IMG/VR virus record: IMGVR_UViG_3300030376_003776 | Coordinates: 1 to 36,861 of that record | Reading direction: 5' to 3' (one strand) | DNA: 36,861 nucleotides | Source: a virus | Taxonomy: Duplodnaviria > Caudoviricetes | Shown here: piece after piece, positions 21,030 through 33,181 of the stretch | Position numbering within the stretch: position 1 is the stretch's first letter | Layout: every line of letters starts with the position of its first letter | Made by a program: the position numbers and the translations under genes | Notes under the pieces: model-generated | What the model saw: the letters and a program-made list of their open reading frames with translations, nothing else | The model's database searches: none | Told to the model about the DNA's origin: nothing

Positions 21030-21045
21030 TGATAATTTTGTGGGA
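21030..21045 (+). promoter_or_regulatory. Possible extended -10 promoter giving a leaderless transcript
   Basis: TG-A-TAATTT, 6 nt, then ATG 21045; no SD sequence. Confidence 0.35.
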
Positions 21046-22292
21046 TGCAATGGCGTAGAATGAGCAAAGCGTTGCTCGTTTTTTTCTATGTAGCAGCCTG
21101 GTTTGCACCCGCTGCAACCGCACTCGAAAGCGTTTCGCTCAGTGCAGACACGCCATACTTGGACTACGACATAACTTTAGACGGCGAAACGTTGCTGCAT
21201 GTCACATTCGACAGCAACACTGCTTGCCCCTTAGATTTCGCAACAACTATTGATCCTTGGCTGCGCCTAATTGATTCAGAAGGCAATATCGTGGCCGACG
21301 ATGACGACGGAAATCACAACGAACAAGACAACTGTTATGGGTCCAAGCTCCACCTTACTCCCGAGGCAGGAACTTATGTCCTACGATTTAGAACGTACCA
21401 AGAACAATCTGGAATTGATATTCCAGACGGCTCAGGAACAGTCACATGGTCAACCGACGGATACTCCCCACCAACAACGACGACTACGACCACAACGTCA
21501 TCTACTACTACGACGACGACTACAACGACGACTACGACTACTACCGCAGCACCCACTACGACGACGACTACGACAACGACGACAACGACGATCCCAGTAA
21601 CTACGACGACGGAGGCACCGCCATCTACCACTACGACCCCACCATCAACGACTACTCAGGCGCCCCCAACGACGACGACGACAACTACTTCGTCCACTTT
21701 GCCGCCCACCACGACCACTACGTTGCCACCGACGACAACGACCACGACGACGCTACCGCCGACGACTACGCTGCCACCGACGACATCAACGTCAACATCT
21801 ACTACTACGAGTACGACGACAACGACGACGGTCCCGCCGACGACAACTACCACGCTGCCGCCTACGACGACCCAACCGCCTACGACGACTACGACGACCA
21901 CGTTGCCGCCTACCACGACAACCTTGCTGCCCCCAACGACAACTCTTCTACCTCAACTTGAAGAAATAACTCCAGAAGTTATTGAAGAACTTGAATACGA
22001 AGAACTGTCTGACGAACAGATTGAAGAAGTTGCAGAAGCAATTCAAGATGCAGATGACGAAGTAAAAGAAGCGTTTGAAGAAGAAGTCAACATTTTCGCT
22101 GGCTCAACTGAGCAATACATTCCTTCAGGCTCCACAGTGTCCGTCGAAGACCGACGCGCCATCATTGCTGTTCAAAGCGCCAGCATCGCAGTAGCAGCCG
22201 CTACACGGCCTCTCCCACCCGCTCCCGTTCCCACCACATCAACAACTTCAGGAGGACCTTCCACACCTACTACTCGGAGAAAAAATGATTAA
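21045..22292 (+). CDS. Secreted mucin-like protein: signal peptide, PPC-like beta domain, Thr/Pro stalk, acidic region
   Basis: Hydrophobic N-terminus with AxA site; DPWLRLIDSEG..DDDDG..GTYVL; long poly-Thr tract. Confidence 0.75.
   Translation: MQWRRMSKALLVFFYVAAWFAPAATALESVSLSADTPYLDYDITLDGETLLHVTFDSNTACPLDFATTIDPWLRLIDSEGNIVADDDDGNHNEQDNCYGSKLHLTPEAGTYVLRFRTYQEQSGIDIPDGSGTVTWSTDGYSPPTTTTTTTTSSTTTTTTTTTTTTTTAAPTTTTTTTTTTTTIPVTTTTEAPPSTTTTPPSTTTQAPPTTTTTTTSSTLPPTTTTTLPPTTTTTTTLPPTTTLPPTTSTSTSTTTSTTTTTTVPPTTTTTLPPTTTQPPTTTTTTTLPPTTTTLLPPTTTLLPQLEEITPEVIEELEYEELSDEQIEEVAEAIQDADDEVKEAFEEEVNIFAGSTEQYIPSGSTVSVEDRRAIIAVQSASIAVAAATRPLPPAPVPTTSTTSGGPSTPTTRRKND
21470..21950 (+). repeat. Low-complexity ACN-codon tract encoding poly-Thr/LPPTTT
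   Basis: Visible ACG/ACT/ACA/ACC runs. Confidence 0.9.
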
Positions 22293-22704: not shown

Positions 22705-23431
22705 AATTCCAGTTACTTCTAGCCGTGTAAAGATCGACGGACTACACCCTCGATTTATTGCACGACTTGAAGCTTTCTTTGCCGATCCCCGCATCGCTAA
22801 CCGTGTCGCTGTCGTATCTGGTGTGCGTTCTTACGCTCAACAGAAATATCTGTATAACGGTTACAAGTCTGGCAAGCGAGGCTTCAACCTTGCAGCAAAT
22901 CCAGACCGTAAACTTAGCAACGGTTTTCAAGGCAGCTACCACATGTCGCAGCCTGCTTTTGACGGTTTTGGCTACGCTGTAGACTTTCGCATTACAGGCA
23001 AGGGCATCACTACCGGCGAAGTTAAAAAGATTGCAGCCGAATATGGAATGCACGCTCCTGTCCGTAGCGAATGGTGGCACCACACTCCTGGCAGCGTCCG
23101 CGGCTCACGCTTTCAATGGTTGCCTTACGAACAAGGCAAAGAACCCCCATCGCCCAGTCCGCAAAACGTTTTGGCTGAAGTTGCTAAGTTTGTAGAAGCC
23201 TGCCGCAACACAGTCGTGCGTAAAGGCGACCGTGGACCTGTCGTAGAGTTCTTGCAGACGCAGCTTGATAAAGACGGTTATCGACTTAACCGTGGCCGCA
23301 AACCTGGAGCTGGTATCGACGGCGCGTTTGGCAAGATGACCGACAAGGCAGTTAAACAGTTCCAGAAAGACGAAGGTCTGACTGTTGATGGTGTCGTCGG
23401 CCCAAACACCTGGAATACTCTTCTCGACTAA
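22697..23431 (+). CDS. Endolysin: M15-family peptidase plus peptidoglycan-binding domain
   Basis: SGVRSYAQQ..LY, S.H..AVD, EWWH; DGAFGKMTDKAVKQFQ..GLTVDGVVGPNTW. Confidence 0.9.
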   Translation: MSKIPVTSSRVKIDGLHPRFIARLEAFFADPRIANRVAVVSGVRSYAQQKYLYNGYKSGKRGFNLAANPDRKLSNGFQGSYHMSQPAFDGFGYAVDFRITGKGITTGEVKKIAAEYGMHAPVRSEWWHHTPGSVRGSRFQWLPYEQGKEPPSPSPQNVLAEVAKFVEACRNTVVRKGDRGPVVEFLQTQLDKDGYRLNRGRKPGAGIDGAFGKMTDKAVKQFQKDEGLTVDGVVGPNTWNTLLD

Positions 23432-23655
23432 GCCTGCAAATCTTCAGGCGGATAGTCTGGAACAAGATGTTCTTGTAGCTCAAGCATAACGTCTGCCAAA
23501 CTTTGCATCAGTTCGATGCGGTCATCGTTATCAAGCACATCCCAGCCTGCTTCCCAAATAATTACATTGGGACCATGCTCTTCGTTCCATGTGGCAATAA
23601 TAATAGGAGCATCAATTAGCTCTAGATGTCCTTCGTAAATGTTGTTATCGCTCAT
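23428..23655 (-). CDS. Hypothetical acidic protein (75 aa)
   Basis: ATGA-coupled last gene of the leftward operon. Confidence 0.65.
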   Translation of the reverse strand: MSDNNIYEGHLELIDAPIIIATWNEEHGPNVIIWEAGWDVLDNDDRIELMQSLADVMLELQEHLVPDYPPEDLQA

Positions 23656-24014
23656 CTATTGACGTACTCTTCCATAGTTTCAATGTAATAATCTCCTGTG
23701 CCATGTGGCTTGCAGAACGGAAAATGAGTCATGCCTGACAACGTAGGCCCACCACAGTCACAACATACTGTTGCATTTGGATTGAACACATTGCGTGGCT
23801 TGTAAGTTCTTGCACGAGATACAACCTCGGCAAGCGATGGCGGGAACTTGTCACCAGCCTCTGCAAACGAATCAATGGAACGAGCCATGTCAGCATACGA
23901 GGTGCTGCCTGCGTGCTGCGCCCACTCCATTGAAGTCGAAGACGTAACCTTGAAGGGGTTACCCCACAACTGCTTCATCTTCACAACAAGTGATTCAGCT
24001 TCTGATTGATTCAT
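23652..24014 (-). CDS. Replicative helicase loader/inhibitor (SPP1 G39P-like)
   Basis: MNQSEA..LV..W..W..Y..KFPPSLAEV signature. Confidence 0.65.
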   Translation of the reverse strand: MNQSEAESLVVKMKQLWGNPFKVTSSTSMEWAQHAGSTSYADMARSIDSFAEAGDKFPPSLAEVVSRARTYKPRNVFNPNATVCCDCGGPTLSGMTHFPFCKPHGTGDYYIETMEEYVNR

Positions 24015-24220
24015 ATGTCTCCATGACTCTGAAGGGCAACAACATAAGCAGCCAATGCAAGCTGCGTGTTGTGACCAACCTCAAACAACTGCCACAAATC
24101 TTGACGATTATCGTCAAATGCTTGTTGACGAATAGCATTATTAAGACCAGCAATATTGTCTATCGCTTTGTAAACCATCGTTACATCATCAACGTTTGGA
24201 ACGTAATTATTATCGCTCAC
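24011..24220 (-). CDS. Hypothetical protein (69 aa)
   Basis: GTG start with AGGAG upstream; coupled to next gene. Confidence 0.6.
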   Translation of the reverse strand: MSDNNYVPNVDDVTMVYKAIDNIAGLNNAIRQQAFDDNRQDLWQLFEVGHNTQLALAAYVVALQSHGDI

Positions 24221-24353
24221 GTTTCTTCTCTCCTGGTTTAAGATGGCACGAACAATTACAAAGGGGCCGGGCCACACGCACCTCACCATGCATGTAGACC
24301 GACCCCTTCACACACTCACCGCCATCAATTTGGCAAGTGTGATTCTTCTTCAC
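24210..24353 (-). CDS. Small Cys/His-rich protein (47 aa)
   Basis: GTGA overlap; ..CNCSCH. Confidence 0.5.
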   Translation of the reverse strand: MKKNHTCQIDGGECVKGSVYMHGEVRVARPLCNCSCHLKPGEKKRER

Positions 24354-24487
24354 TGGCGCTTGTTTGGTTTCTTGCCAGTAATACGCTTGATCCAAACAGA
24401 CGGCTTTTCACCAGGCTGCAACTCCAAAGAACTATCGGAGTTACGCAACACCTGCGGATCAACCCATTCCGTGCGATTGATACCCAC
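24350..24487 (-). CDS. Hypothetical protein (45 aa, MGINRTEWVDPQ..; not in ORF track)
   Basis: TAGTG overlap with SSB stop; fills the gap exactly. Confidence 0.55.
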   Translation of the reverse strand: MGINRTEWVDPQVLRNSDSSLELQPGEKPSVWIKRITGKKPNKRQ

Positions 24488-24909
24488 TAGAACGGCTCGT
24501 GCTCAGGAGATGAAACCTGAGCACCAGGGAACGCAGCAGCAACATTACCTGCACCTGCTGATTCCAGCGGCGGACGAATCATGGAAGCCACGTCCCACAA
24601 GTTGCACTTCCAACCAATCTTCGGCTGGCCTTCCTTGCTGACGTAGTTATCCGGTGCAAACTTGCCACGGATCATCACACGACTACCCTTACTGGTGTGC
24701 TGGGCATACGCTTGACCCTCACGATCCGAATTGTTGTTATCCGGCCAAACCGTCAGATCAACAAAGATCGTAGGATCATCCTTCTTCGGCTGATACGCCA
24801 AAGCGTTAACCCAAATAGTCTTCTCTTCACCCTGTGAATTCACAGTTTTGGATTGCCACTCACGGCAAAGATTACCGTACGCAAATCCATATCCTTCACT
24901 CAGCATCAT
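24487..24909 (-). CDS. ssb: Single-stranded DNA-binding protein
   Basis: GNL..FVDLTVW..KGSRVMIRGK..Y..KEG; C-terminal EPF; AGGAGG RBS. Confidence 0.85.
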   Translation of the reverse strand: MMLSEGYGFAYGNLCREWQSKTVNSQGEEKTIWVNALAYQPKKDDPTIFVDLTVWPDNNNSDREGQAYAQHTSKGSRVMIRGKFAPDNYVSKEGQPKIGWKCNLWDVASMIRPPLESAGAGNVAAAFPGAQVSSPEHEPF

Positions 24910-25321
24910 CTTCCTCCTGTTCTGCTGAATCACTCTGTGCCAGCTTGTCCAGCACATAGTTATCTTGCGACCACAAGTGGAGTCCAACACCCACTCGCAT
25001 CGCACACCGTTTGATTGCATCTGAAACGGCGTTCTTTGCATTAGCTCCGTTGTTCGCACCGGGGCGCTCAACATCACCAGCTTCTTCAATGACGACAAGT
25101 TCGCCGTCAATCTGATACGTCACACGCAGAATGCAGCCTTGCACTACACCATCTGCGTTGTAAATCAATTCTTTGACCTCTTGGGTACACGGCCCAATCT
25201 TTGCCAACAGAATCTGTTGAATGTCAGCGTGCGACACATAATCAGCTTGAAACCCACCGGGCTTCGTCTTGATATATGACGCAGGAATACGCTTTACAAG
25301 ATCACGCAGTACGGTCTTCAT
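24896..25321 (-). CDS. Rad52/22-family (Sak-like) single-strand annealing protein
   Basis: DYVSHADI..KNAVSDAIKRCAMRVGVGLHLW. Confidence 0.85.
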   Translation of the reverse strand: MKTVLRDLVKRIPASYIKTKPGGFQADYVSHADIQQILLAKIGPCTQEVKELIYNADGVVQGCILRVTYQIDGELVVIEEAGDVERPGANNGANAKNAVSDAIKRCAMRVGVGLHLWSQDNYVLDKLAQSDSAEQEEDDAE

Positions 25322-25511
25322 GCAGATCAATCACCTTTGCGTTGAGTTCAATCTCATCCAAACGATCCTGCTCAGCAGTCATTCGGATACCTTCGTTAAT
25401 CCAATGACGAATTTGGGCAGTAGCAGACCGTTCCTTAGTAGCTCCAATTAGCCCAGCAGCTTCCCAAGCAGCAGGCTTCATAGGAATAACCTTATTAACC
25501 TTATCAGTCAT
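25302..25511 (-). CDS. Ribbon-helix-helix (Arc/ParD-like) DNA-binding protein
   Basis: ..ERSATAQIRHWI; GGAGG RBS. Confidence 0.55.
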   Translation of the reverse strand: MTDKVNKVIPMKPAAWEAAGLIGATKERSATAQIRHWINEGIRMTAEQDRLDEIELNAKVIDLHEDRTA

Positions 25512-25528
25512 AACATCCTCCAAGATGT

Positions 25529-26368
25529 TTATATTGTTACTTCGTCAGGCCCAATGCCATAACAAAGACTATTATACAGGCAATACCTACATTCCCAATG
25601 TGTTTTCTTCGACGGACGACCATACGGGCCAGGCGACTCAACAGTCTTCAACCGAGACAAACCCTCTTCGCCATTACCGTCGTCATACACAATCGGATGC
25701 GGCAACAACCCACCCAGAATCGCCTTATCGACACGCTTGAAACGAATCAACTCAAACTCTGTGATGTCAAACACCGTTTCAAGACGGCCATCAAACACAG
25801 GATCGTTCAACTCAAAGTAATGCTCATACACATCACCAGCACGCACCTTGTCACGAAACGACGTTTCTTTCGCCACATACACAATGTGAATCGCATTCGC
25901 GCCCAAACCACGCGCATACAGGCCAGCCTGCGCCACATGCTCACGCTTCGGTGCTTCTCGGGCAAGCTTGCTGCCATACGCAGACGCAGACTTGAACTCA
26001 ACTACAACCTTGTGACCATCGCTATACGTCACCACAAGGTCAGCAGACCCCGACAAATCAGCACCCAACGGGCGACAATCCACCGGAACTTCAACGTCTA
26101 CCGACACTCCACCCATAACGGCCTGACGCACAAACGCTTCTTGCACAAAATCATGAATGCTGTTCCCTACATGGAACGCCAATAGCGTCTGCAAGTCCGG
26201 CGTCTCGGACTCGTCAAAGCCCGTGCCCTTGTACCAGCGCTGACGCTCACACGACCCGGCATCAGACACGCGCAAGCGCGTGCCCAGAGCCGTGGGCTTC
26301 GGCCCATCCTCATTGTATTTGCTTACTTGACCTGCATAAATAATGCCTTCGGCATCAATCATGGACAC
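25529..26368 (-). CDS. Cas4-like PD-(D/E)XK exonuclease
   Basis: S.AGSCERQ, GNSIH, GSAD..EFKS, Q..LY, CRYC..C (four Cys). Confidence 0.85.
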   Translation of the reverse strand: MSMIDAEGIIYAGQVSKYNEDGPKPTALGTRLRVSDAGSCERQRWYKGTGFDESETPDLQTLLAFHVGNSIHDFVQEAFVRQAVMGGVSVDVEVPVDCRPLGADLSGSADLVVTYSDGHKVVVEFKSASAYGSKLAREAPKREHVAQAGLYARGLGANAIHIVYVAKETSFRDKVRAGDVYEHYFELNDPVFDGRLETVFDITEFELIRFKRVDKAILGGLLPHPIVYDDGNGEEGLSRLKTVESPGPYGRPSKKTHWECRYCLYNSLCYGIGPDEVTI

Positions 26369-26605
26369 CTACCTTCGTTGTTGCTTTATTCTATCACGTT
26401 CCGCAGGTGTCGTACCTCCCCACACCCCGTAATCCGTATCCCACGGATCAACTGTGTCGATACGCCACTGCAAACATGTTTCCTTGACAACACACTTTTG
26501 GCAAACAGCAACCCCTAAATCCATCTGTCGATGATCAAAAAACTTGACAGATGGTTCTTCTTTACAAGCTGCCTGATCCATCCACATCGTCTGAAACAGT
26601 TCCAT
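26369..26605 (-). CDS. whiB: WhiB-family transcription factor
   Basis: W..QAAC..CQKCVVKETC..GVWGGTTPAER. Confidence 0.92.
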   Translation of the reverse strand: MELFQTMWMDQAACKEEPSVKFFDHRQMDLGVAVCQKCVVKETCLQWRIDTVDPWDTDYGVWGGTTPAERDRIKQQRR

Positions 26606-26906
26606 TTTGTGACTCACGCAACACCTCCATGAACTCCCGCCCAAGTTCACCAGAGACATTAGCTTCAGTATCAGTCATAGTACGCAACCCATGACCTACA
26701 GACGTATGGTCTTGCCGCCATTGCTGAGCAATACGAGACTGCGACCAACTAAACGTCCCAGACAACACAGCATTGATAACCCGACGAGTTCTTACTAACT
26801 CCGGGTACCTAGCCATGCTCATTACCATTTCGTACGACTGACACTCTTTGTCGCACACATAGTCAGCAAGCAACTCGAACAACGTGTCATCAGTAGGAAT
26901 ACGCAC
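26562..26906 (-). CDS. Stand-alone DnaA C-terminal (domain IV) HTH-like protein
   Basis: R..ELVRTR..S..RIAQ..RQDHTSVGHG resembles DnaA GRDHTTVLH. Confidence 0.6.
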   Translation of the reverse strand: MRIPTDDTLFELLADYVCDKECQSYEMVMSMARYPELVRTRRVINAVLSGTFSWSQSRIAQQWRQDHTSVGHGLRTMTDTEANVSGELGREFMEVLRESQNGTVSDDVDGSGSL

Positions 26907-27907
26907 TACACACCAGCAAGCTCACGAACAAGCTTGGTAGCAGTACGCGTCATCGGCATGTCACCCTTGATGAACTTCGTCATCATCCGCTGATCACGAT
27001 TCTTACCGTGCCCGTGGAAATGCTGCTCGTACTCGTTGACAGCCTGGATTGCATGGAACGCAGACTTGCGCGGGATCGTGCCATTGTCGTTGTTCCAAAT
27101 AGAACGCAGTCGATTGCGAGTCTCACGAGCAGCATTGAACGCCTTGGTGTTGAGTTGCACCCAATCACCAGTCACCTTGTGCGGACCCATTTTGATGTCA
27201 ACCTCGGGCTGGATCGTGTTAACAAGTTCAACCCACTGCGAATCACGGAAGTCCTTGTCCATCAACTGCATGATGTCACGGTCCATGTCATCCATCGCAC
27301 GGTATGCACGCTCAAGACCAGAGCGAGCTTCGATCAGACGATCTCTGGCAGACGACGTGTGCTTGATCGACCAGCGTAGATCACCCATGCGGGTAGCAAT
27401 ATCGTACGTGTTCTGACAAACCACACGGACAGTCACAACGTAGACAACAAAGTTGCCAGTACCGTGATGCGTAGCAACCAGCAAGAACCGGTTGGTAGCT
27501 TCTTCAGTACCTGCAAACGCAACTGACTCGCCAAGATCAAGCAGCATCCAAGCCATGCTGGAGTTGAACATAGTGCCAGCCGTAGTAACAGGCAGACCAA
27601 GCTCGTCTACCAAATCGACCATCTCGTAGTTCTGAATGATTTCGTAACGATCAGACACGATCTGCGGCTGCTTGCCAATCGAAGAATCAACAAGTTCTTC
27701 AGGCACAGAACGCTTCAGCAACCAACGACCAGGGATCGGGTTGTACGTCTGACTGTCGATAATCGGGGACTTGTAGATCTGGTAGTCCAGACCACCAAGC
27801 TCATAAGCAAGCGCTGGGTTAAGCACCGTGTCTTCAGGCAGAACCAAACCCTGCCTATGCCACGGAGTCTCACCGACACTCACCATCATTTCAGGGATAG
27901 CTCCCAT
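26906..27907 (-). CDS. DUF932 / TIGR03299-like phage-plasmid protein
   Basis: TPWHRQG, VSDRYEIIQN, VRVVCQNT, IKHT, AVNEYEQH. Confidence 0.85.
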   Translation of the reverse strand: MGAIPEMMVSVGETPWHRQGLVLPEDTVLNPALAYELGGLDYQIYKSPIIDSQTYNPIPGRWLLKRSVPEELVDSSIGKQPQIVSDRYEIIQNYEMVDLVDELGLPVTTAGTMFNSSMAWMLLDLGESVAFAGTEEATNRFLLVATHHGTGNFVVYVVTVRVVCQNTYDIATRMGDLRWSIKHTSSARDRLIEARSGLERAYRAMDDMDRDIMQLMDKDFRDSQWVELVNTIQPEVDIKMGPHKVTGDWVQLNTKAFNAARETRNRLRSIWNNDNGTIPRKSAFHAIQAVNEYEQHFHGHGKNRDQRMMTKFIKGDMPMTRTATKLVRELAGV

Positions 27908-27909
27908 AT

Positions 27910-28107
27910 TTACCACTCTCCTGTTTGTATAAAATCTTCTGCCATTGCTTCTGCAATGCGCTCTTCAATCTGCATCAGCACTTTGTAATCGGCTGTGCCA
28001 GTCATACCAACAAACTCGATGTATGACATCTTCTCCACACGCTCAAGTGCACGTTCGTACACTTCGGTGAATGCTTCCTCGGACGTTTTGTTAACGACGT
28101 TACGCAT
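27910..28107 (-). CDS. Hypothetical protein (65 aa)
   Basis: ORF in leftward operon; start chosen to avoid overlap. Confidence 0.55.
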   Translation of the reverse strand: MRNVVNKTSEEAFTEVYERALERVEKMSYIEFVGMTGTADYKVLMQIEERIAEAMAEDFIQTGEW

Positions 28108-28114
28108 CAATATT

Positions 28115-28330
28115 CTACCTGCTTTCTTGTTCTTCAACACACTCTGGACACTTGGCATCGGCATACGTCACACCATCCCACTTATCCAACTGCTCTAACT
28201 CCCAACCCTCACCCTCAGCCTCAACGACAAGAGAACCAGCATCAAGCCAACGCTCACGCCACTCTTGCTGATAGCAAATGTCACACTCCAACTCAAAGCC
28301 CTCATCAGGACCAGCAAATACAAGACCCAT
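28115..28330 (-). CDS. Small zinc-finger protein (71 aa)
   Basis: CDIC..EGW..CPEC; AAAGGTGG RBS. Confidence 0.65.
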   Translation of the reverse strand: MGLVFAGPDEGFELECDICYQQEWRERWLDAGSLVVEAEGEGWELEQLDKWDGVTYADAKCPECVEEQESR

Positions 28331-28455
28331 AGGTCCACCTTTCATAGTTAAGAAAGCGCAGAGAAGGAGAGGGAGAAAGGAGTAAGAACCTCTCCTCCCC
28401 TGCACACCGGTTAGATATGGGTGATAGTGAACCACCCTTACCAAAAAATTGTGTA

Positions 28456-28646
28456 GAGCAGTTTTACGACATGCTCAGGTCGGGTGCAGTTTAAGGAGAT
28501 GCTTAGCTCTGTAAGTGTATTAGGTGGCAGGATGAGGGCCTGCCCGGTTGCATCAAGTTAACGCCTGTGCCTAAGGCGTGGGGGATTCTGCGACCTGATA
28601 CCTCCTGGTCACATTGGAGGGAGCAGTTTCAGCCGCTGCTCAGGGC
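28456..28646 (-). ncRNA. Structured non-coding region with three copies of a ~27-nt H-type pseudoknot motif
   Basis: Copies at 28456-82, 28484-510 and 28621-46: stem-CURAGCA-stem-UNAAAC-UGC, first stem covaries. Confidence 0.6.
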
Positions 28647-28670
28647 GTACTCAGTCATTGTTCATATCAG

Positions 28671-28730
28671 TTACCTACTAACTAGAATTACAAACGCCAT
28701 CAGCAAGAATAGCCAACCAGCACCAGTCAT
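28671..28730 (-). CDS. Tiny membrane peptide MTGAGWLFLLMAFVILVSR (19 aa)
   Basis: AGGAG RBS; TAATG coupling. Confidence 0.45.
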   Translation of the reverse strand: MTGAGWLFLLMAFVILVSR

Positions 28731-28963
28731 TAGAATGGTTCTCCTGTGGTATGACGATCAAGGATGTAATCGTCTTCATCGCTGATCGGATACGCACCAC
28801 GCTCAATCTCAAAGTCAAGCAGTAGCTGAGACAGCTTGGACTGAAGATCGTTGGCATCACGCCATGTCAATGTGATGTAGTTTGTGTTGTAAAGATTTGA
28901 TGCTTGGTCGTGTAGATCAACACGCACCATGAAATCTGTGCGGTCACGAAAGACAGTAATCAT
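28730..28963 (-). CDS. Hypothetical protein (77 aa)
   Basis: GAGGTG RBS; TGATG coupling. Confidence 0.65.
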   Translation of the reverse strand: MITVFRDRTDFMVRVDLHDQASNLYNTNYITLTWRDANDLQSKLSQLLLDFEIERGAYPISDEDDYILDRHTTGEPF

Positions 28964-29244
28964 CACCACACCTCTTTGATATTGCGCACGTTAGCGGTCT
29001 GCTCAATGACATCGGCTGCGTCGTAATCGTTGACACGCTCACGGATGGCCTGATCAACAGCAAACGTCAACTGCTTTGCAAGCACAGCCATCTGCTGCAA
29101 GTCGTGACAGAACACAGTCAACTCTGCCCTGTCAATCTTGATCGTTACCCAATTCGTATCGAACGTTGGATAGTGTTTTGAATTAGCATCAACCGAAGTG
29201 CTTGACTCCTCGGTCATGTGTAGTGATGTGCTGAATAGAGCCAT
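28963..29244 (-). CDS. Hypothetical protein (93 aa)
   Basis: GAGG RBS; coupled. Confidence 0.7.
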   Translation of the reverse strand: MALFSTSLHMTEESSTSVDANSKHYPTFDTNWVTIKIDRAELTVFCHDLQQMAVLAKQLTFAVDQAIRERVNDYDAADVIEQTANVRNIKEVW

Positions 29245-29246
29245 GT

Positions 29247-29348
29247 CTATTCCTCTCTTTCTTTTTTGTAAGACAAATAATCATCAACCAGCAGCGCCAA
29301 CAGGAAGCAACTGGACATGATGAAGAACAGAAGCCAGAACGTATACAT
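29247..29348 (-). CDS. Small membrane peptide (33 aa, MYTFWLLFFIMSSCFLLALLV..; not in ORF track)
   Basis: GAGGT RBS; single hydrophobic helix; fills gap. Confidence 0.55.
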   Translation of the reverse strand: MYTFWLLFFIMSSCFLLALLVDDYLSYKKEREE

Positions 29349-29354
29349 CAGACC

Positions 29355-29531
29355 TCACTCATCAACATCGAACATACCGGTGAACAACGGACGCACACCG
29401 CTCGGTGCTGGAGCAGGGTTGTTTGTGTGAATGTCATAGTGACAGTAGGTACAAATATCCTCCATACCCCACACATAGTGCTTATCCCACTCCTTGCCGC
29501 TGATTGGCAAGTTGCAATGGTCGCAAATCAT
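29355..29531 (-). CDS. Small zinc-binding protein (58 aa)
   Basis: MICDHC..CTYC; GAAGGG RBS. Confidence 0.6.
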   Translation of the reverse strand: MICDHCNLPISGKEWDKHYVWGMEDICTYCHYDIHTNNPAPAPSGVRPLFTGMFDVDE

Positions 29532-29651
29532 TTTTCTAATTCCCTTCTCTATGGTGATAGTGATCCCGGAACCGGGGGGGCCGGCCGGCGCATCACCGGC
29601 TACGGGCCTCACGCAGCAGCGCACCCCCGCGTTGCTGGCTGGTGCGGGACA

Positions 29652-29684
29652 CGAGAAAGCCCCGACCCGCTGGGGGCCGGGGCT
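29652..29684 (-). terminator. Intrinsic terminator of the 153-aa gene
   Basis: AGCCCCGGCCC-CCAGC-GGGTCGGGGCT then TTCTC, 7 nt after the stop. Confidence 0.65.
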
Positions 29685-29691
29685 GCTCGGG

Positions 29692-30153
29692 CTATCGGGC
29701 GTGGATGTCTTTGGTGAGGGACTTCCACTCGTCGTCATCCCGTGCGACGGTCGCCTCGTCGGTGCGCTGGCGGAACGGGAGCATCGCGAGGCGGAGCGGC
29801 TTCAGGAGGTTTCCTGCGGCGGCTCGGTTCGGAAGCTCTCGGAAGGCCACGACCCGCGTCTGCTCCTCGAACTGATCGGGGTCGAACGCGTCGGGGATGT
29901 TGACTCGGGCCGTCACGCCGAGGATTGCCTGGCTGCCGACCATGCTGAGGAAGTAGCCGTTGGTGTCCTTGACGCCGGGTTCGACGCTGCCGTGAGGCGG
30001 GACCTCCATGACCCAGGTGCCCGCCTGGCGGCCCTGCATCACCTTGCGGGCGATGCCGTCGCTGCCGTCCGGCAGGCTCACCATCCCCTCGTGGATTCGA
30101 TCCAGGGCGTCTGCGAGACGCTCCTCGGTTGACATGTTCACGATATCGGTCAT
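29692..30153 (-). CDS. Hypothetical protein (153 aa) encoded inside the left arm of the fold-back
   Basis: GAAAGGAG RBS, high-GC3 codons, downstream terminator; no family recognised. Confidence 0.8.
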   Translation of the reverse strand: MTDIVNMSTEERLADALDRIHEGMVSLPDGSDGIARKVMQGRQAGTWVMEVPPHGSVEPGVKDTNGYFLSMVGSQAILGVTARVNIPDAFDPDQFEEQTRVVAFRELPNRAAAGNLLKPLRLAMLPFRQRTDEATVARDDDEWKSLTKDIHAR

Positions 30154-30671
30154 CGTGTCTCCTTTCGTAGAGGGGGCCGCGCGGCCACGTCGAGCGTCGG
30201 GTCCCTCGACGGGACGCCGTGGCATCCGTCACATGGGCCGGTCGCGGATGAGGAGGAGGAGGTAGCCAATCGGCGGAACTGGCGACGACGCAAATCGGGT
30301 GGTGTGGCATACGTCACGCCGGGGCGACGGGCGGGGGGTCGAAGCGCCGGAACCAGAGCGCAGAGTCGTAACAAGCAAAAGTTTTTTGGGGACGTCCCAA
30401 CCCACGCCGAGGAACGAGGTGTGGTAAGGACGGGTCCAAAAAAGTTTTGTGCAGGGACGACGGCGCGATCTGGGCCGGTGCTACGATCCCCCCGACCGGC
30501 GACACGGTGTGATGGATGGCACGCCGCACGATTGGCGGCGGCGACAGGCCGACGATAGGCTGCCGACGACGACGAAGTAGCAGCCGGCGCATGTGATGGA
30601 TGGCATGGTGGCCCGTTGAGGGGCTCGACGCTCGACGTGGCAGGGTGGTCCCCTCTACGGAAGGGGGCACG

Positions 30672-31185
30672 AGGGCCGATATCGGGGACATGTCAGCCGA
30701 GGTGCGGCTCGCAGACGACCGGGATCTAATCCACCCCCCTCTCTTCTCTTTTATCTTTCATTTCTCGTGATAGTGGGCGCCCAACAGAGGGGATGGTGTG
30801 ACTGCGGGACGGTAGCGGCGGCAGCGACCGTGAGGGGATGCAGGGCAGACAGGTGGGCGGCTGGGGCTTGGAGGTTCTGCGTCACGGTAGTGGCGGACCC
30901 GGCGTCGAGGACGCCGACGGCTGCTTCCTCGGCGTGGTCGGTAGTCAGGCGGTCATCGTCGTGACGGCCAGAGGCAACGTCACCGTCGTGTTCGACACCG
31001 AGCAGGTCGAGGGGCAGGCGTGGGGCGTGGACTGCCGGGAGATTACGGACCGGGCCGACGCAGGGAGCCTCATGGAGCCGCTCCGTCTCGTGGTGCTCAC
31101 GGTCCGCCTGTGCACCGTCGAGGTGACAGGCGCGCGGGATGGCGTCGAGGGGATGTTCCTCACCGAAGACAGCCTCGCCCGATAG
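30672..31185 (+). pseudogene. Non-coding inverted mimic copy of the 153-aa gene
   Basis: About 80% identical; ATG>AGG, SD AGGAG>AGGGG, in-frame TGA at codon 26, 52-nt insertion, mostly non-synonymous changes. Confidence 0.85.
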
Positions 31186-31561
31186 TCCGACAGCCACGGT
31201 CCCCATCGGGTCGGGGCACTCGGGTCACGCAGGGTTTATCGCGCCCCCCCAAGAAAGCAACGACGTGATAGTGACGCTTAAACTTGAGAGCAGGCGCGAT
31301 AAACCCAAGCCAGCAACGCGGAAATGAAACAGTCCCCCACCCCAACCCTCCGGAAGTCTTGCTTTGTTTGACCGGTGCCGGTGGTTTAAGAAGGGTGGGG
31401 GGCATTCTTCTAGCGCTGCTGCGTGCTGCCTGTAGCCGGGGATGTGCCGTGGCCCCCCCGGTATAAATAATGCTAATCAGTGTGTTGGTAGTTTTGGTTT
31501 GTTGGGTTGCCTGTTGTTTGGTTTGGGGTCGGGTCACCCCTGGGTCCCTCCGCCAGTTTAG

Positions 31562-31730
31562 GTTGGTCGCCTCTAGCAAGTAGCTTTGGTTGCTAGGCCG
31601 CATTCCCGGTGGGACATGCGGCTGCTGCCCTTCTGACGGGCGATCTCTCGGCGGCTGACCGAGGCACAACAGTTGACCGTGTTGTGTGCGGTGTGCCACG
31701 ATTATGGCGTGGCTGTGAGGCTGCGTCAAC
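31562..31730 (+). ncRNA. Multi-branch structured element (six hairpins plus closing stem)
   Basis: Six back-to-back hairpins seen by eye; RNA versus ssDNA role unknown. Confidence 0.5.
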
Positions 31731-31753
31731 TAATAAGGATATAGGTGTTGGCT

Positions 31754-31942
31754 ATGGCTGACTTGATGGTTGATGTTTTTCGGAGGATTGGTGTGCAGAA
31801 GCCCGGTGATTGGGTTGCGAAGTATCAGGCTCCAGATTCGGAGTGGGATGATGAGGAAGTGGATTGGGGATCAGATTCGGATGTACCGGTTGATCCTGCG
31901 TGCGACTTGGAAAGCCCGGAGGAGTGCGAGTCATGCCAGTAG
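31754..31942 (+). CDS. Small acidic protein ending ACDLESPEECESCQ (62 aa)
   Basis: AGGTG RBS; C-terminal CxxC. Confidence 0.65.
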   Translation: MADLMVDVFRRIGVQKPGDWVAKYQAPDSEWDDEEVDWGSDSDVPVDPACDLESPEECESCQ

Positions 31943-32010
31943 GCAGTGTCCTGTTGCTGATCCTCATTTGTGTATTTGTGATCTTTGTGATTGTAAAGGA
32001 TGGTAAGTGA
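31933..32010 (+). CDS. Possible 25-aa membrane peptide MPVGSVLLLILICVFVIFVIVKDGK
   Basis: GGAG upstream; TGATG coupling to next gene. Confidence 0.35.
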   Translation: MPVGSVLLLILICVFVIFVIVKDGK

Positions 32011-32192
32011 TGGCTGCTAGCGCGAAACATTATTTTCGAGATGGTCGGATTCATAACGGCAAGTTTCATAAGATGTCGAATGGCAAGTTGCACACTGGTG
32101 CTAGTCATACGGCGTCAAGTAAACCGTTGTTTCATTACGGCCAGTTGAGTAAGAAGGCTCAGGCAAAGGTCCGGGCAGATCGGAAGAAGTGA
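32010..32192 (+). CDS. Small basic His-rich protein (60 aa)
   Basis: HKMSNGKLHTGASHT; coupled. Confidence 0.7.
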   Translation: MAASAKHYFRDGRIHNGKFHKMSNGKLHTGASHTASSKPLFHYGQLSKKAQAKVRADRKK

Positions 32193-32392
32193 TGGCTGCT
32201 AAGAAGGTTGCGAAGAAGAAAGCGAAGTCTCGGGTTAACGAGGCTGGTAATTACACGAAGCCTACGATGCGTAAGAATCTGTTTAATCAGATTAAGGCTG
32301 GTAGCAAGGGCGGTAAGCCTGGGCAGTGGTCGGCGCGTAAGGCGCAGATGTTGGCGAAGCAGTACAAGGCTAAGGGTGGCGGTTACAAGTAA
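32192..32392 (+). CDS. Small basic protein (resembles DUF5872 N-terminal part)
   Basis: NYTKPTMRK..KGGKPGQWSARKAQ..YKAKGGGY. Confidence 0.75.
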   Translation: MAAKKVAKKKAKSRVNEAGNYTKPTMRKNLFNQIKAGSKGGKPGQWSARKAQMLAKQYKAKGGGYK

Positions 32393-32637
32393 TGGCTGCG
32401 AAGAAGAAGTCGCAGAAGTCTTTGGATCGTTGGTCGAAGCAGAAGTGGCGTACTCCGTCTGGTAAGCCGTCTGGTAAGACTGGTGAGGTGTATGCGCCTG
32501 CTGCGACAATTAAGAAGTTGAAATCTACGCCTGCTGGTCGTAAGAAGTTAGCGGCGGCTAACAAGAAGAAGCGTGAGGCTACTCGTAAGGGTAAGCAGCA
32601 TGCTCGTCATGGTTTGCATAAGGGAAAGAAGCGCTGA
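32392..32637 (+). CDS. Small basic protein (resembles DUF5872 C-terminal part)
   Basis: SQKSLDRWSKQKWRT.SGKPS..TGE.Y.P. Confidence 0.75.
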   Translation: MAAKKKSQKSLDRWSKQKWRTPSGKPSGKTGEVYAPAATIKKLKSTPAGRKKLAAANKKKREATRKGKQHARHGLHKGKKR

Positions 32638-32930
32638 TGGCTGAGAAGAAGAAAGACCCGAAGCTGGCTCGTGCTGGGGTGTCGGGTTATAACAAGCCAA
32701 AGCGGACACCAAATCATCCGAAAAAGTCGCATGTTGTTGTGGCCCGTAATAAAGCGGGTACAACGAAGTTGATTCGTTTTGGGCAGCAGGGTGTGCGTGG
32801 TGCTGGTAAGAACCCGAAGTCGGCTAAGGATAAGGCTCGTAAGAAGTCGTACTATGCACGGCATAATGCTCAGGACAGCAAGCCGGATATTCTTTCGGCG
32901 CGGTACTGGTCGCACAAGGTGAAGTGGTAA
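32637..32930 (+). CDS. Small basic phage protein (97 aa)
   Basis: GYNKPKRTPNHPKKSHVV..IRFGQQG..ARH..ARYWS.KVKW. Confidence 0.75.
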   Translation: MAEKKKDPKLARAGVSGYNKPKRTPNHPKKSHVVVARNKAGTTKLIRFGQQGVRGAGKNPKSAKDKARKKSYYARHNAQDSKPDILSARYWSHKVKW

Positions 32931-33181
32931 TGGCTCCTCGTAGGTCTAAGTCGCCTGGTAAGACTGCTAAGGCGATGAACAAGAATCCGGCGCAGCGCAA
33001 GAAGCACAATGCGCGCAATGCGAAGTATCACGACACGCCAAAGCGTCGTGCGTATCGTGCCGAGTTGGCGCGTGGCCGTCGTGCCAAGGGCATGATGGGC
33101 AAGGGCGGTCCTGATCTTCATCACAGCAAAAACGGTAAGTTGGTAAAGAAGTCGGTCAAAACTAACCGAGGCCGCAAATAA
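32930..33181 (+). CDS. Small basic protein, possibly HNH-derived
   Basis: G.G.DLHH..G..NRGR; directly before terminase. Confidence 0.6.
   Translation: MAPRRSKSPGKTAKAMNKNPAQRKKHNARNAKYHDTPKRRAYRAELARGRRAKGMMGKGGPDLHHSKNGKLVKKSVKTNRGRK

What the first reader, a model, noticed from the sequence alone, without database searches (positions are those of the whole stretch)
29692..30153. Orphan 153-aa protein singled out for encoding inside the fold-back
Seen: the only credible gene in the rod, monocistronic, with a strong SD and high-GC codons unlike the rest of the genome. I recognise no family, HUH motif or polymerase motif. Inference: it may be the first protein made after entry or during ssDNA exposure, such as an anti-defence, end-protection or second-strand initiation factor.
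Basis: inference. Interest (0 to 1): 0.7.

Follow-up and report, generated by a model that had tools for sequence, protein, structure and literature searches.

The report
Phage gene wrapped in mirror hairpin
A marine tailed phage carries a small conserved gene of no known family paired with a non-coding mirror copy whose mismatches suit one DNA strand only, so the gene could likely be read from folded single-stranded DNA, probably to make an early protein against host defences.

Summary
The 153-aa ORF is real, but not a strict orphan. It has 11 further homologue clusters (29-90% identity) and a likely distant clade of 4. No named family or fold match was found. All three distinct viruses where I could see the DNA (window, L008, L081) wrap the gene in a fold-back with a non-coding mirror copy; L081 uses a different two-hairpin layout. 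Only the template strand folds well, and the mismatches fit DNA rather than RNA energetics (G-A 33 vs C-T 2; 126 vs 0 oriented tandem G-A pairs in L008). The arms co-vary in related strains. An extended -10-like box sits on the mirror strand only, and a leftward promoter is confined to rod carriers. Best reading (0.5): a whole transcription unit readable from one folded DNA strand, Frpo-like but gene-long, making an accessory, acidic, immediate-early anti-defence or host-takeover protein. Its function, its expression and the single-stranded stage are untested. 24 of 26 loci examined lack rod and gene, so a core replication role is unlikely. This scan noted similar gene-mirroring fold-backs on other phage DNA; my literature searches found no description.

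The parts
29692..30153 (-). Gene for the 153-aa acidic alpha/beta protein (P0001); the + strand is its template
30159..30165 (-). Shine-Dalgarno AAAGGAG, 5 nt before the ATG; AAGGAG also in L008 and L081
29571..31462 (+). Whole 1.9-kb fold-back, much more stable on the + strand
30669..31185 (+). Non-coding mirror copy of the gene, 81% identical over 462 columns; would act as the non-template strand when folded
30735..30786 (+). 52-nt pyrimidine-rich bulge in the mirror arm; L008 has a 52-nt C-rich bulge near the same place
30601..30609 (+). TGGCATGGT, an extended -10-like box on the mirror strand only; it pairs with 30216-30224 with 3 mismatches (G-G, two G-T), two of them in the hexamer
   Evidence: TGGCAT[GC]GT also on the mirror arm of L008 and L081; once in the whole window
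30408..30418 (+). Apex CGAGGAACGAG (tandem G-A pairs under a GAA triloop), identical at the apex in L008 and L081
30249..30262 (+). (GAG)n facing (GAC)n: G-C pairs alternating with tandem 5'GA/3'AG pairs; expanded to about 550 bp in L008
29659..29685 (-). Terminator-like hairpin after the stop codon (weak U tail; not called by the scan)
31701..31729 (-). TTGACG-17-CATAAT promoter-like site facing the rod; found only in rod carriers, with a variable spacer
31441..31740 (+). Conserved non-coding stretch (GATGTGCCG...ATGCTA, G/T tract, CCCTCCG box) shared with rodless relatives; candidate late promoter and terminal-repeat region (inferred)
29556..29562 (+). GATAGTG motif at the rod's left foot (also 30769 and 31267); recurs in the early region of many relatives

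Best explanation
The ORF encodes a conserved, acidic, accessory phage protein whose template strand pairs with a non-coding mirror copy, and this fold-back likely lets host RNA polymerase transcribe the gene from single-stranded DNA, so that a protein predicted to block a host defence or DNA-processing factor would be made at the start of infection. Shown: the gene and its family; the mirror arm; strand-specific, DNA-type mismatch chemistry; co-variation of the arms; coverage of the gene in two different hairpin layouts; a -10-like box on the mirror strand only. Inferred: (1) the + strand becomes single-stranded here, most likely by 5'-3' resection of the - strand from a nearby genome end, placed by analogy with cluster BF phages; (2) in the fold the mirror arm supplies a mismatched TG-G-CATGGT box about 60 nt above the ATG, and polymerase reads promoter, SD, ORF and terminator as a pseudo-duplex; (3) once the locus is double-stranded that box is gone from the gene's own strand (CACGGC in the window), so expression would be a short early pulse; (4) the protein works by binding a host protein. 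The mirror is probably kept in step by template switching or conversion, with selection filtering the mismatches.
For: Of 91 mismatches across the gene, on the + strand: G-T 44, G-A 33, T-T 9, G-G 3, C-T 2, and A-C, A-A, C-C 0; G-T vs A-C p=1e-13, G-A vs C-T p=4e-8. In the 63 isolated contexts DNA parameters rank G-A (3.5) with G-T (3.4) and far above C-T (5.2), while RNA parameters do not separate G-A from C-U (6.6 vs 6.7). Mismatches are isolated: 3 adjacent vs 17.7 expected, 0 of 5000 shuffles as low. Tandem 5'GA/3'AG vs the reverse order: 126 vs 0 in the L008 inner stem and 5 vs 0 in the window. The same 11-nt apex occurs in 3 of 3 rods. In run X5, 5 of 21 listed pairs change on both sides and stay Watson-Crick, and none becomes A-C, C-C, C-T or A-A; in run X9 about 75 nt left and 74 nt right are deleted at nearly facing positions. 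Each mirror matches its own gene (0.81, 0.87) better than the other virus's gene (0.64-0.66). Mirror-type translations from other records track gene variants (P0024 71/127 to P0017 vs 67/127 to P0001). In L081 the gene body is the right arm of one hairpin and the promoter and start are the left arm of another, so covering the template strand is what persists. TGGCAT[GC]GT is on the mirror arm in 3 of 3 rods and occurs once in 36.9 kb. A cruciform is implausible: duplex about -3034 vs -854 and -626 for the two hairpins (different parameter sets, rough). [quoted passage not shown] The window encodes a Cas4-like exonuclease, an annealing protein and SSB. Precedent: ssDNA promoters drive transient early genes, many of them anti-defence, on plasmids (passages of PMC9849209; 10.1101/2023.02.15.528439).
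Against: No single-stranded stage is shown or known to me for a tailed dsDNA phage of this kind, and the genome end is placed by a weak analogy only (terminase 29% over 28% of its length, capsid about 39%); Immanuel3 has no rod. The -10-like box is not canonical, has no recognisable -35, and in L008 the gene's own strand (CACAGT) also keeps the key A and T. L008's gene arm (G-T 12, G-A 14, T-T 9, G-G 6, C-T 6, A-A 4, A-C 3, C-C 1) and L081's first hairpin (G-A 26, G-T 13, C-T 8, A-C 5; tandem 3 vs 2) are much less biased than the window. The tandem count in L008 comes from one repeat expansion aligned under my own scoring, not from 126 independent events. Only 40 of 217 strain differences were displayed, so partner changes may be hidden. 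Homology of the L081 protein is modest (hhalign 69%, E 4.5e-5; 28%, E 6.5e-4 with its clade). Codon-level selection between window and L008 is weak or saturated (identity 0.46/0.55/0.46 by position; 17 of 45 identical residues use another codon). The SD is predicted partly paired even in a short transcript. A conventional leftward promoter at 31729-31701 could serve the gene from dsDNA. Nothing ties the protein to a function.
Confidence: 0.5

Rival explanations
1. The fold-back is mainly a DNA shield or self-priming cap for an exposed genome end: it hides ssDNA from nucleases and SOS sensing and offers a 3' end for fill-in. The gene is cargo or helps process the end, and is expressed from ordinary dsDNA promoters.
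For: The same DNA-type, one-strand chemistry. The rod ends exactly at the conserved right-hand motif. 28 of 56 terminase loci end within 4 kb upstream of the terminase, against 5 within 4 kb downstream. No helicase, primase or replicative polymerase gene was recognised in the window.
Against: A cap needs no gene mirror, yet the gene is what stays covered in both layouts; the mirror-only -10-like box is conserved; most relatives lack any rod. The contig breaks can also come from abundant relatives sharing the small late genes, and the virus record is only 86% complete.
Confidence: 0.2
2. The structure works as RNA: a cis-antisense hairpin in transcripts from the leftward promoter at 31729-31701, or a + strand RNA, silences or times translation of a host-toxic or strictly timed protein.
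For: The leftward promoter is confined to rod carriers (2 of 13 loci; 2 records in the viral collection). The - strand RNA is still predicted to fold strongly (-1203 kcal/mol) and to pair the SD and start. G-U is the commonest mismatch on the + strand.
Against: The strand that the leftward promoter would copy (-) is the one whose pairing is spoiled. No rightward promoter or gene feeds the + strand from the left, apart from two 9/12 consensus hits at chance level. RNA parameters do not explain G-A 33 vs C-U 2. Rfam gave no match.
Confidence: 0.15
3. An inverted duplication of the first early gene is kept similar by template switching and has no function of its own; the protein is an ordinary accessory early protein.
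For: It explains why mirrors track their own gene and the patchy distribution (2 of 26 loci).
Against: It does not explain isolated mismatches, one-strand bias in all four mismatch classes, the shared apex, the 52-nt bulge in two viruses whose proteins are 36% alike, the tandem G-A lattice or the second layout.
Confidence: 0.1
4. Rod and gene form a selfish single-strand mobile element or a replication origin, and the protein is its mobiliser or second-strand initiator.
For: The module is GC-rich, accessory and bounded by short inverted repeats.
Against: It always sits at the same locus of one phage clade; there is no relative in prokaryote genomes, GenBank phages or plasmids; the protein is acidic, no catalytic motif is invariant (H54 is lost in the L081 clade), and no HUH or primase family matched.
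Confidence: 0.05

Closest known systems
Frpo/ssi single-stranded DNA promoters of conjugative plasmid leading regions (F Frpo1/Frpo2, ColIb-P9 ssi; passages of PMC9849209 and 10.1101/2023.02.15.528439)
   Same: A fold-back on the template strand that would rebuild a promoter for early, transient genes; plasmid leading genes are often anti-defence.
   Different: Frpo is a non-coding stem-loop with canonical -35/-10 boxes upstream of genes that stay single-stranded. Here the whole gene is duplexed by a mirror copy, the boxes are non-canonical, there is no DNA match to plasmids, and the carrier is a tailed phage with no known ssDNA entry.
Coliphage N4 hairpin promoters (recalled; papers seen as search listing only)
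   Same: A phage early gene read from a DNA hairpin with a small purine loop.
   Different: N4 hairpins are a few base pairs long and are read by a roughly 3,500-aa virion polymerase. The 1914-aa virion-type protein here matched only a family of unknown function, and the rod is 1.9 kb.
d(GNA) triloop mini-hairpins and sheared G-A pairs (passages of PMC3201870; stability of tandem G-A and the (GGA)2 motif in DNA recalled)
   Same: GAA/GTA triloops and tandem 5'GA/3'AG pairs on the folding strand.
   Different: Here they are built into kilobase stems. The apex loop is closed by G:C, the less stable closing pair in that paper.
Streptomyces cluster BF podoviruses (Beephvirinae, e.g. Immanuel3; PMC9753666 passages)
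   Same: Same layout: rightward terminase and virion genes, leftward early genes running in from the other end, Cas4-family exonuclease.
   Different: Distant (capsid about 39%); BF phages encode primase and helicase and show no fold-back or homologue of the protein.

Membership tests
Frpo/ssi ssDNA promoters | Stem-loop on the strand that is the template of the early gene | tested here: met
   + strand is the template and the better-folding strand
Frpo/ssi ssDNA promoters | Canonical -35 and -10 boxes rebuilt in the stem | tested here: not met
   Only a TG-G-CAT[GC]GT box on the mirror arm, no TTGACA-like hexamer at spacing
Frpo/ssi ssDNA promoters | Sequence likeness to plasmid Frpo/ssi | tested here: not met
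   No blastn match in 72,556 plasmid records
Frpo/ssi ssDNA promoters | Located in DNA that enters the cell single-stranded (oriT leading region) | not testable with these tools
   Tailed phage; only contigs were available for the runs
Frpo/ssi ssDNA promoters | Transcribed by host RNA polymerase as ssDNA but not as dsDNA | not testable with these tools
   Needs in vitro transcription
HUH / Rep / primase initiators | HUH, primase or polymerase motif or profile match | tested here: not met
   No invariant HUH-type motif; no Pfam, PHROG or NCBIfam match
HUH / Rep / primase initiators | Matching fold | tested here: inconclusive
   Two models (pLDDT 78, 84); best Z 5.2 over 45 helical residues and 4.6 over 74; no Foldseek E<=0.001
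Known phage anti-defence proteins (Acr, Ocr/Ard, Gam, sponges) | Sequence or fold match to a described protein | tested here: inconclusive
   No PDB sequence hit; a cas/anti-cas chain 7eni_C at Z 3.7, rmsd 3.8, 83 aligned is within noise
Known phage anti-defence proteins (Acr, Ocr/Ard, Gam, sponges) | Small, often acidic, accessory gene at the head of the early region | tested here: met
   135-153 aa, pI 4.76-5.30; absent from 24 of 26 loci; these traits are not specific
Described structured RNAs (Rfam) | Covariance-model match | tested here: not met
   0 matches at E<=1 in 28200-32000

The most novel reading that the evidence does not exclude
Some tailed double-stranded DNA phages expose one strand at the leading end of the genome and carry a complete, self-duplexing transcription unit there: a mirror pseudo-strand built with DNA-specific G-A, G-T and triloop chemistry turns a single strand into a readable gene, with a promoter that exists only in the fold, to deliver a pulse of a new anti-defence protein before defences that need true double-stranded DNA can act.
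Probability: 0.35. Interest if true: 0.92.

Novelty: new variant of a known kind. Interest (0 to 1): 0.74.

Why it matters
If right, it points to an unrecognised single-stranded stage in tailed-phage infection and extends ssDNA promoters from plasmid stem-loops to whole mirrored genes. It would also give a sequence-only marker for the first gene a phage expresses, a good source of new anti-defence proteins. The roughly 550-bp G-C/tandem G-A stem of L008 is a natural non-canonical DNA helix that can be tested with synthetic DNA. The core claim can be tested in vitro without culturing the phage.

Tried and rejected
Protein function by homology: no family for P0001 in PHROGs, Pfam or NCBIfam; PADLOC gave one E 0.042 hit in 1 of 11 members; none in PDB sequences, the ESM Atlas or GenBank phages. 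Fold searches gave only noise-level rows (levivirus coat proteins TM about 0.2; WGR, PH and PC4-like domains at Z 3.4-4.0), which I do not use. P0008 and P0009 are long proteins matched through several short stretches (P0008 is visibly repetitive) and were dropped; P0004 and P0006 are mirror-type translations and were kept out of the family alignment; L065, L067 and L068 are chance hits. A first permissive self-pairing score was non-specific and was discarded (replaced). Local 200-nt folding in 7 rodless relatives showed no consistent + strand preference, so the single-strand fold is not family-wide. Regular spacing of mismatches by longest perfect run was not significant (19 vs 22.6, P 0.31). 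A shared GGGATGT motif before the BF terminal repeat was found in 1 of 4 BF genomes and dropped. No RNA holder was listed among the sequencing runs. Thin cover of 30516-31017 in low-depth runs X2-X4 is not used. No relative was found in prokaryote genomes. A metal or catalytic His pair was rejected as universal because H54 is absent in the L081 clade. Literature searches for a phage gene-mirroring fold-back found no description; the library lacks most subscription journals.

Full report
Setting. The window is a 36,861-base virus record, about 86% complete. It encodes a terminase, major capsid protein, tail and lysis genes rightwards, and WhiB, DUF932, a Cas4-like exonuclease, an annealing protein and SSB leftwards. 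This points to an actinobacterial, podovirus-like phage. The runs that hold it best are marine metagenomes. The finding lies between the leftward early block and the rightward late block.

The ORF. 29692-30153 (-) is an open 153-aa frame with AAAGGAG 5 nt upstream and GC3 0.87 against 0.47-0.68 in 8 other ORFs. Direct search gave 2 clusters at 90 and 85%. A profile of 6 sequences gave 11 clusters among 3576 candidates, 135-153 aa, 31-90%. The 12-member alignment has 22 invariant columns, among them IH, VPxHG, YFxS and LxPL. A fourth clade (P0030-P0033) is probably homologous: tblastn 27%, E 0.01; hhalign 69% and 28%. It keeps E11, H21, VP and Y67 but not H54. All 12 core members are acidic. 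Two AlphaFold models agree on two N-terminal helices, a four-stranded sheet and C-terminal helix (pLDDT 78 and 84). No library or fold search named the protein. Selection is shown at protein level only; the codon comparison with L008 is saturated.

The fold-back. The gene is the left arm of a rod at 29571-31462. The right arm is an 81% mirror copy with a lost start, a stop and a 52-nt insertion. Read as pairs of the + strand, the 91 mismatches over the gene are G-T 44, G-A 33, T-T 9, G-G 3, C-T 2, with no A-C, A-A or C-C. Each class mirrors its opposite on the other strand, so neutral decay would give even splits. Mismatches avoid each other (3 adjacent vs 17.7). DNA energy parameters predict G-A over C-T and RNA parameters do not. 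A cruciform would cost about 1,500 kcal/mol by a rough comparison, so the fold needs the partner strand absent.

Are homologues always in fold-backs? Of 56 terminase-related loci, 25 had at least 3.2 kb upstream. With the window, 2 of these 26 have a rod (scores 1712 and 1140, all others at most 74), and the family profile hit only the window and the L008 virus among the loci then held. L008 carries a 146-aa, 36% homologue with a frameshifted mirror, a 52-nt bulge near the same place, CCC-GAA/GTA-GGG mini-hairpins and a centre of (GAG)n facing (GAC)n that aligns as 126 tandem 5'GA/3'AG pairs and none in reverse order. L081, found through the conserved late leader, covers its gene with two hairpins: promoter and start in one with the mirror on the right, gene body in another with the mirror on the left. 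All three share the apex CGAGGAACGAG, a TGGCAT[GC]GT box on the mirror arm only, and a leftward TTGACG-17-CATAAT right of the rod. That promoter pattern occurs in just those two records of the viral collection. The apex word also occurs near the late motif in L003, which has no rod, and in L006, whose contig ends too soon to tell. Several close relatives (L001, L004, L005, L006, L014) end too soon to be judged. No DNA context was available for the other homologue clusters, although mirror-type translations P0023 and P0024 share their longest-contig lengths with gene variants P0020 and P0017, and P0024 tracks the P0017 variants. Strain contigs show five double compensatory changes among 21 listed pairs (X5), a near-symmetric 75/74-nt deletion (X9) and a replaced centre (X5) (40 of 217 differences displayed).

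How it most likely works. The folding strand is the gene's template. Folded, it carries promoter region, SD, ORF and a terminator-like hairpin against a mimic non-template strand. The mimic shows TG-G-CATGGT with mismatches about 60 nt above the start, where the gene's own strand reads CACGGC. I infer transcription from the folded strand and loss of it once the locus is duplex, as shown for Frpo on plasmids (PMC9849209 passages). How the strand is freed is unknown. Cluster BF phages, the nearest cultured relatives, have the same layout with short terminal repeats between early and late blocks (PMC9753666 passages). If that holds here, the rod lies just inside the end whose + strand ends 3', and 5'-3' resection would expose it. 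This step is analogy only. The protein is accessory, small, acidic and stands where rodless relatives carry several small leftward genes. I commit to an immediate-early inhibitor of a host defence or DNA-end-processing protein, by analogy with plasmid leading genes (10.1101/2023.02.15.528439 passages). Rough odds: real gene 0.95; selected single-strand DNA fold 0.8; transcription from the fold 0.55; anti-defence or host-takeover role 0.5.

Against. L008 and L081 gene arms are less biased than the window. The -10-like box is non-canonical and not strictly mirror-only in function in L008. The SD is partly paired even in a short transcript. A normal leftward promoter could serve the gene. Rodless relatives show no one-strand folding, and Immanuel3 has no rod. 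No expression, terminus or binding data exist.

Comparison and novelty. It works like an Frpo promoter if the inference holds, but it is not a member: no canonical boxes and no sequence match to plasmids. I found no printed description of a gene-long mirror in phages (most subscription journals are not searched and no supplements were read). Papers seen: passages of PMC9849209, 10.1101/2023.02.15.528439, PMC3201870 and PMC9753666; N4 papers as listings only. The stability of tandem G-A and (GGA)2 motifs in DNA, N4 promoter details and actinobacterial -10 rules are recalled. Earlier notes of this scan describe similar fold-backs in other phages; they are unchecked and not counted as support. 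What this locus adds is three carriers with two layouts, a test that favours DNA over RNA, a G-A lattice stem and a new protein family tied to the structure. Verdict: real, a new variant of ssDNA-promoter logic, interest 0.74.

Noticed in passing
L008:6520-7500: About 1 kb of GAG repeats grading into GAC repeats that aligns as a roughly 550-bp stem of G-C pairs alternating with tandem G-A pairs, plus GGAATGAATGGA and GCGGAG repeats on both sides of the apex.
   Followed up: partly
L010:1440-4640: The early region of a rodless relative holds 61 copies of CTCGAG in about 3.2 kb; possibly restriction-site decoys or a protein-binding array.
   Followed up: no
L002, L003, L010, L011, 1.3-4.5 kb upstream of the terminase: The GC-rich early cassette lacks the avoidance of palindromic 6-mers seen in the rest of these genomes.
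   Followed up: partly
window 28420-31275 and relatives: GATAGTG (CACTATC on the early strand) recurs several times in the early region of many family members; a candidate early promoter or operator.
   Followed up: partly
window 31441-31740: A 300-nt non-coding stretch conserved in 12 loci with a G/T tract and CCCTCCG(T/C)CAGTTT box; no Rfam match; candidate terminal repeat, packaging signal or late leader RNA.
   Followed up: partly
window 32007-33181: Five small lysine-rich ORFs before the terminase, shared with abundant marine phages.
   Followed up: no
window 21045-22292: 415-aa ORF with a long ACG/ACT-rich repeat (21469-21940), probably a threonine-rich linker.
   Followed up: no
window 23428-29244: The early block has exonuclease, annealing protein, SSB, WhiB, a DnaA-C-like HTH and DUF932, but no recognised helicase, primase or polymerase; the record may be incomplete.
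   Followed up: no
window 31233-31308 and 31335-31402: Two side hairpins bulge from the right arm near the rod's foot; L081 shares part of the second.
   Followed up: no
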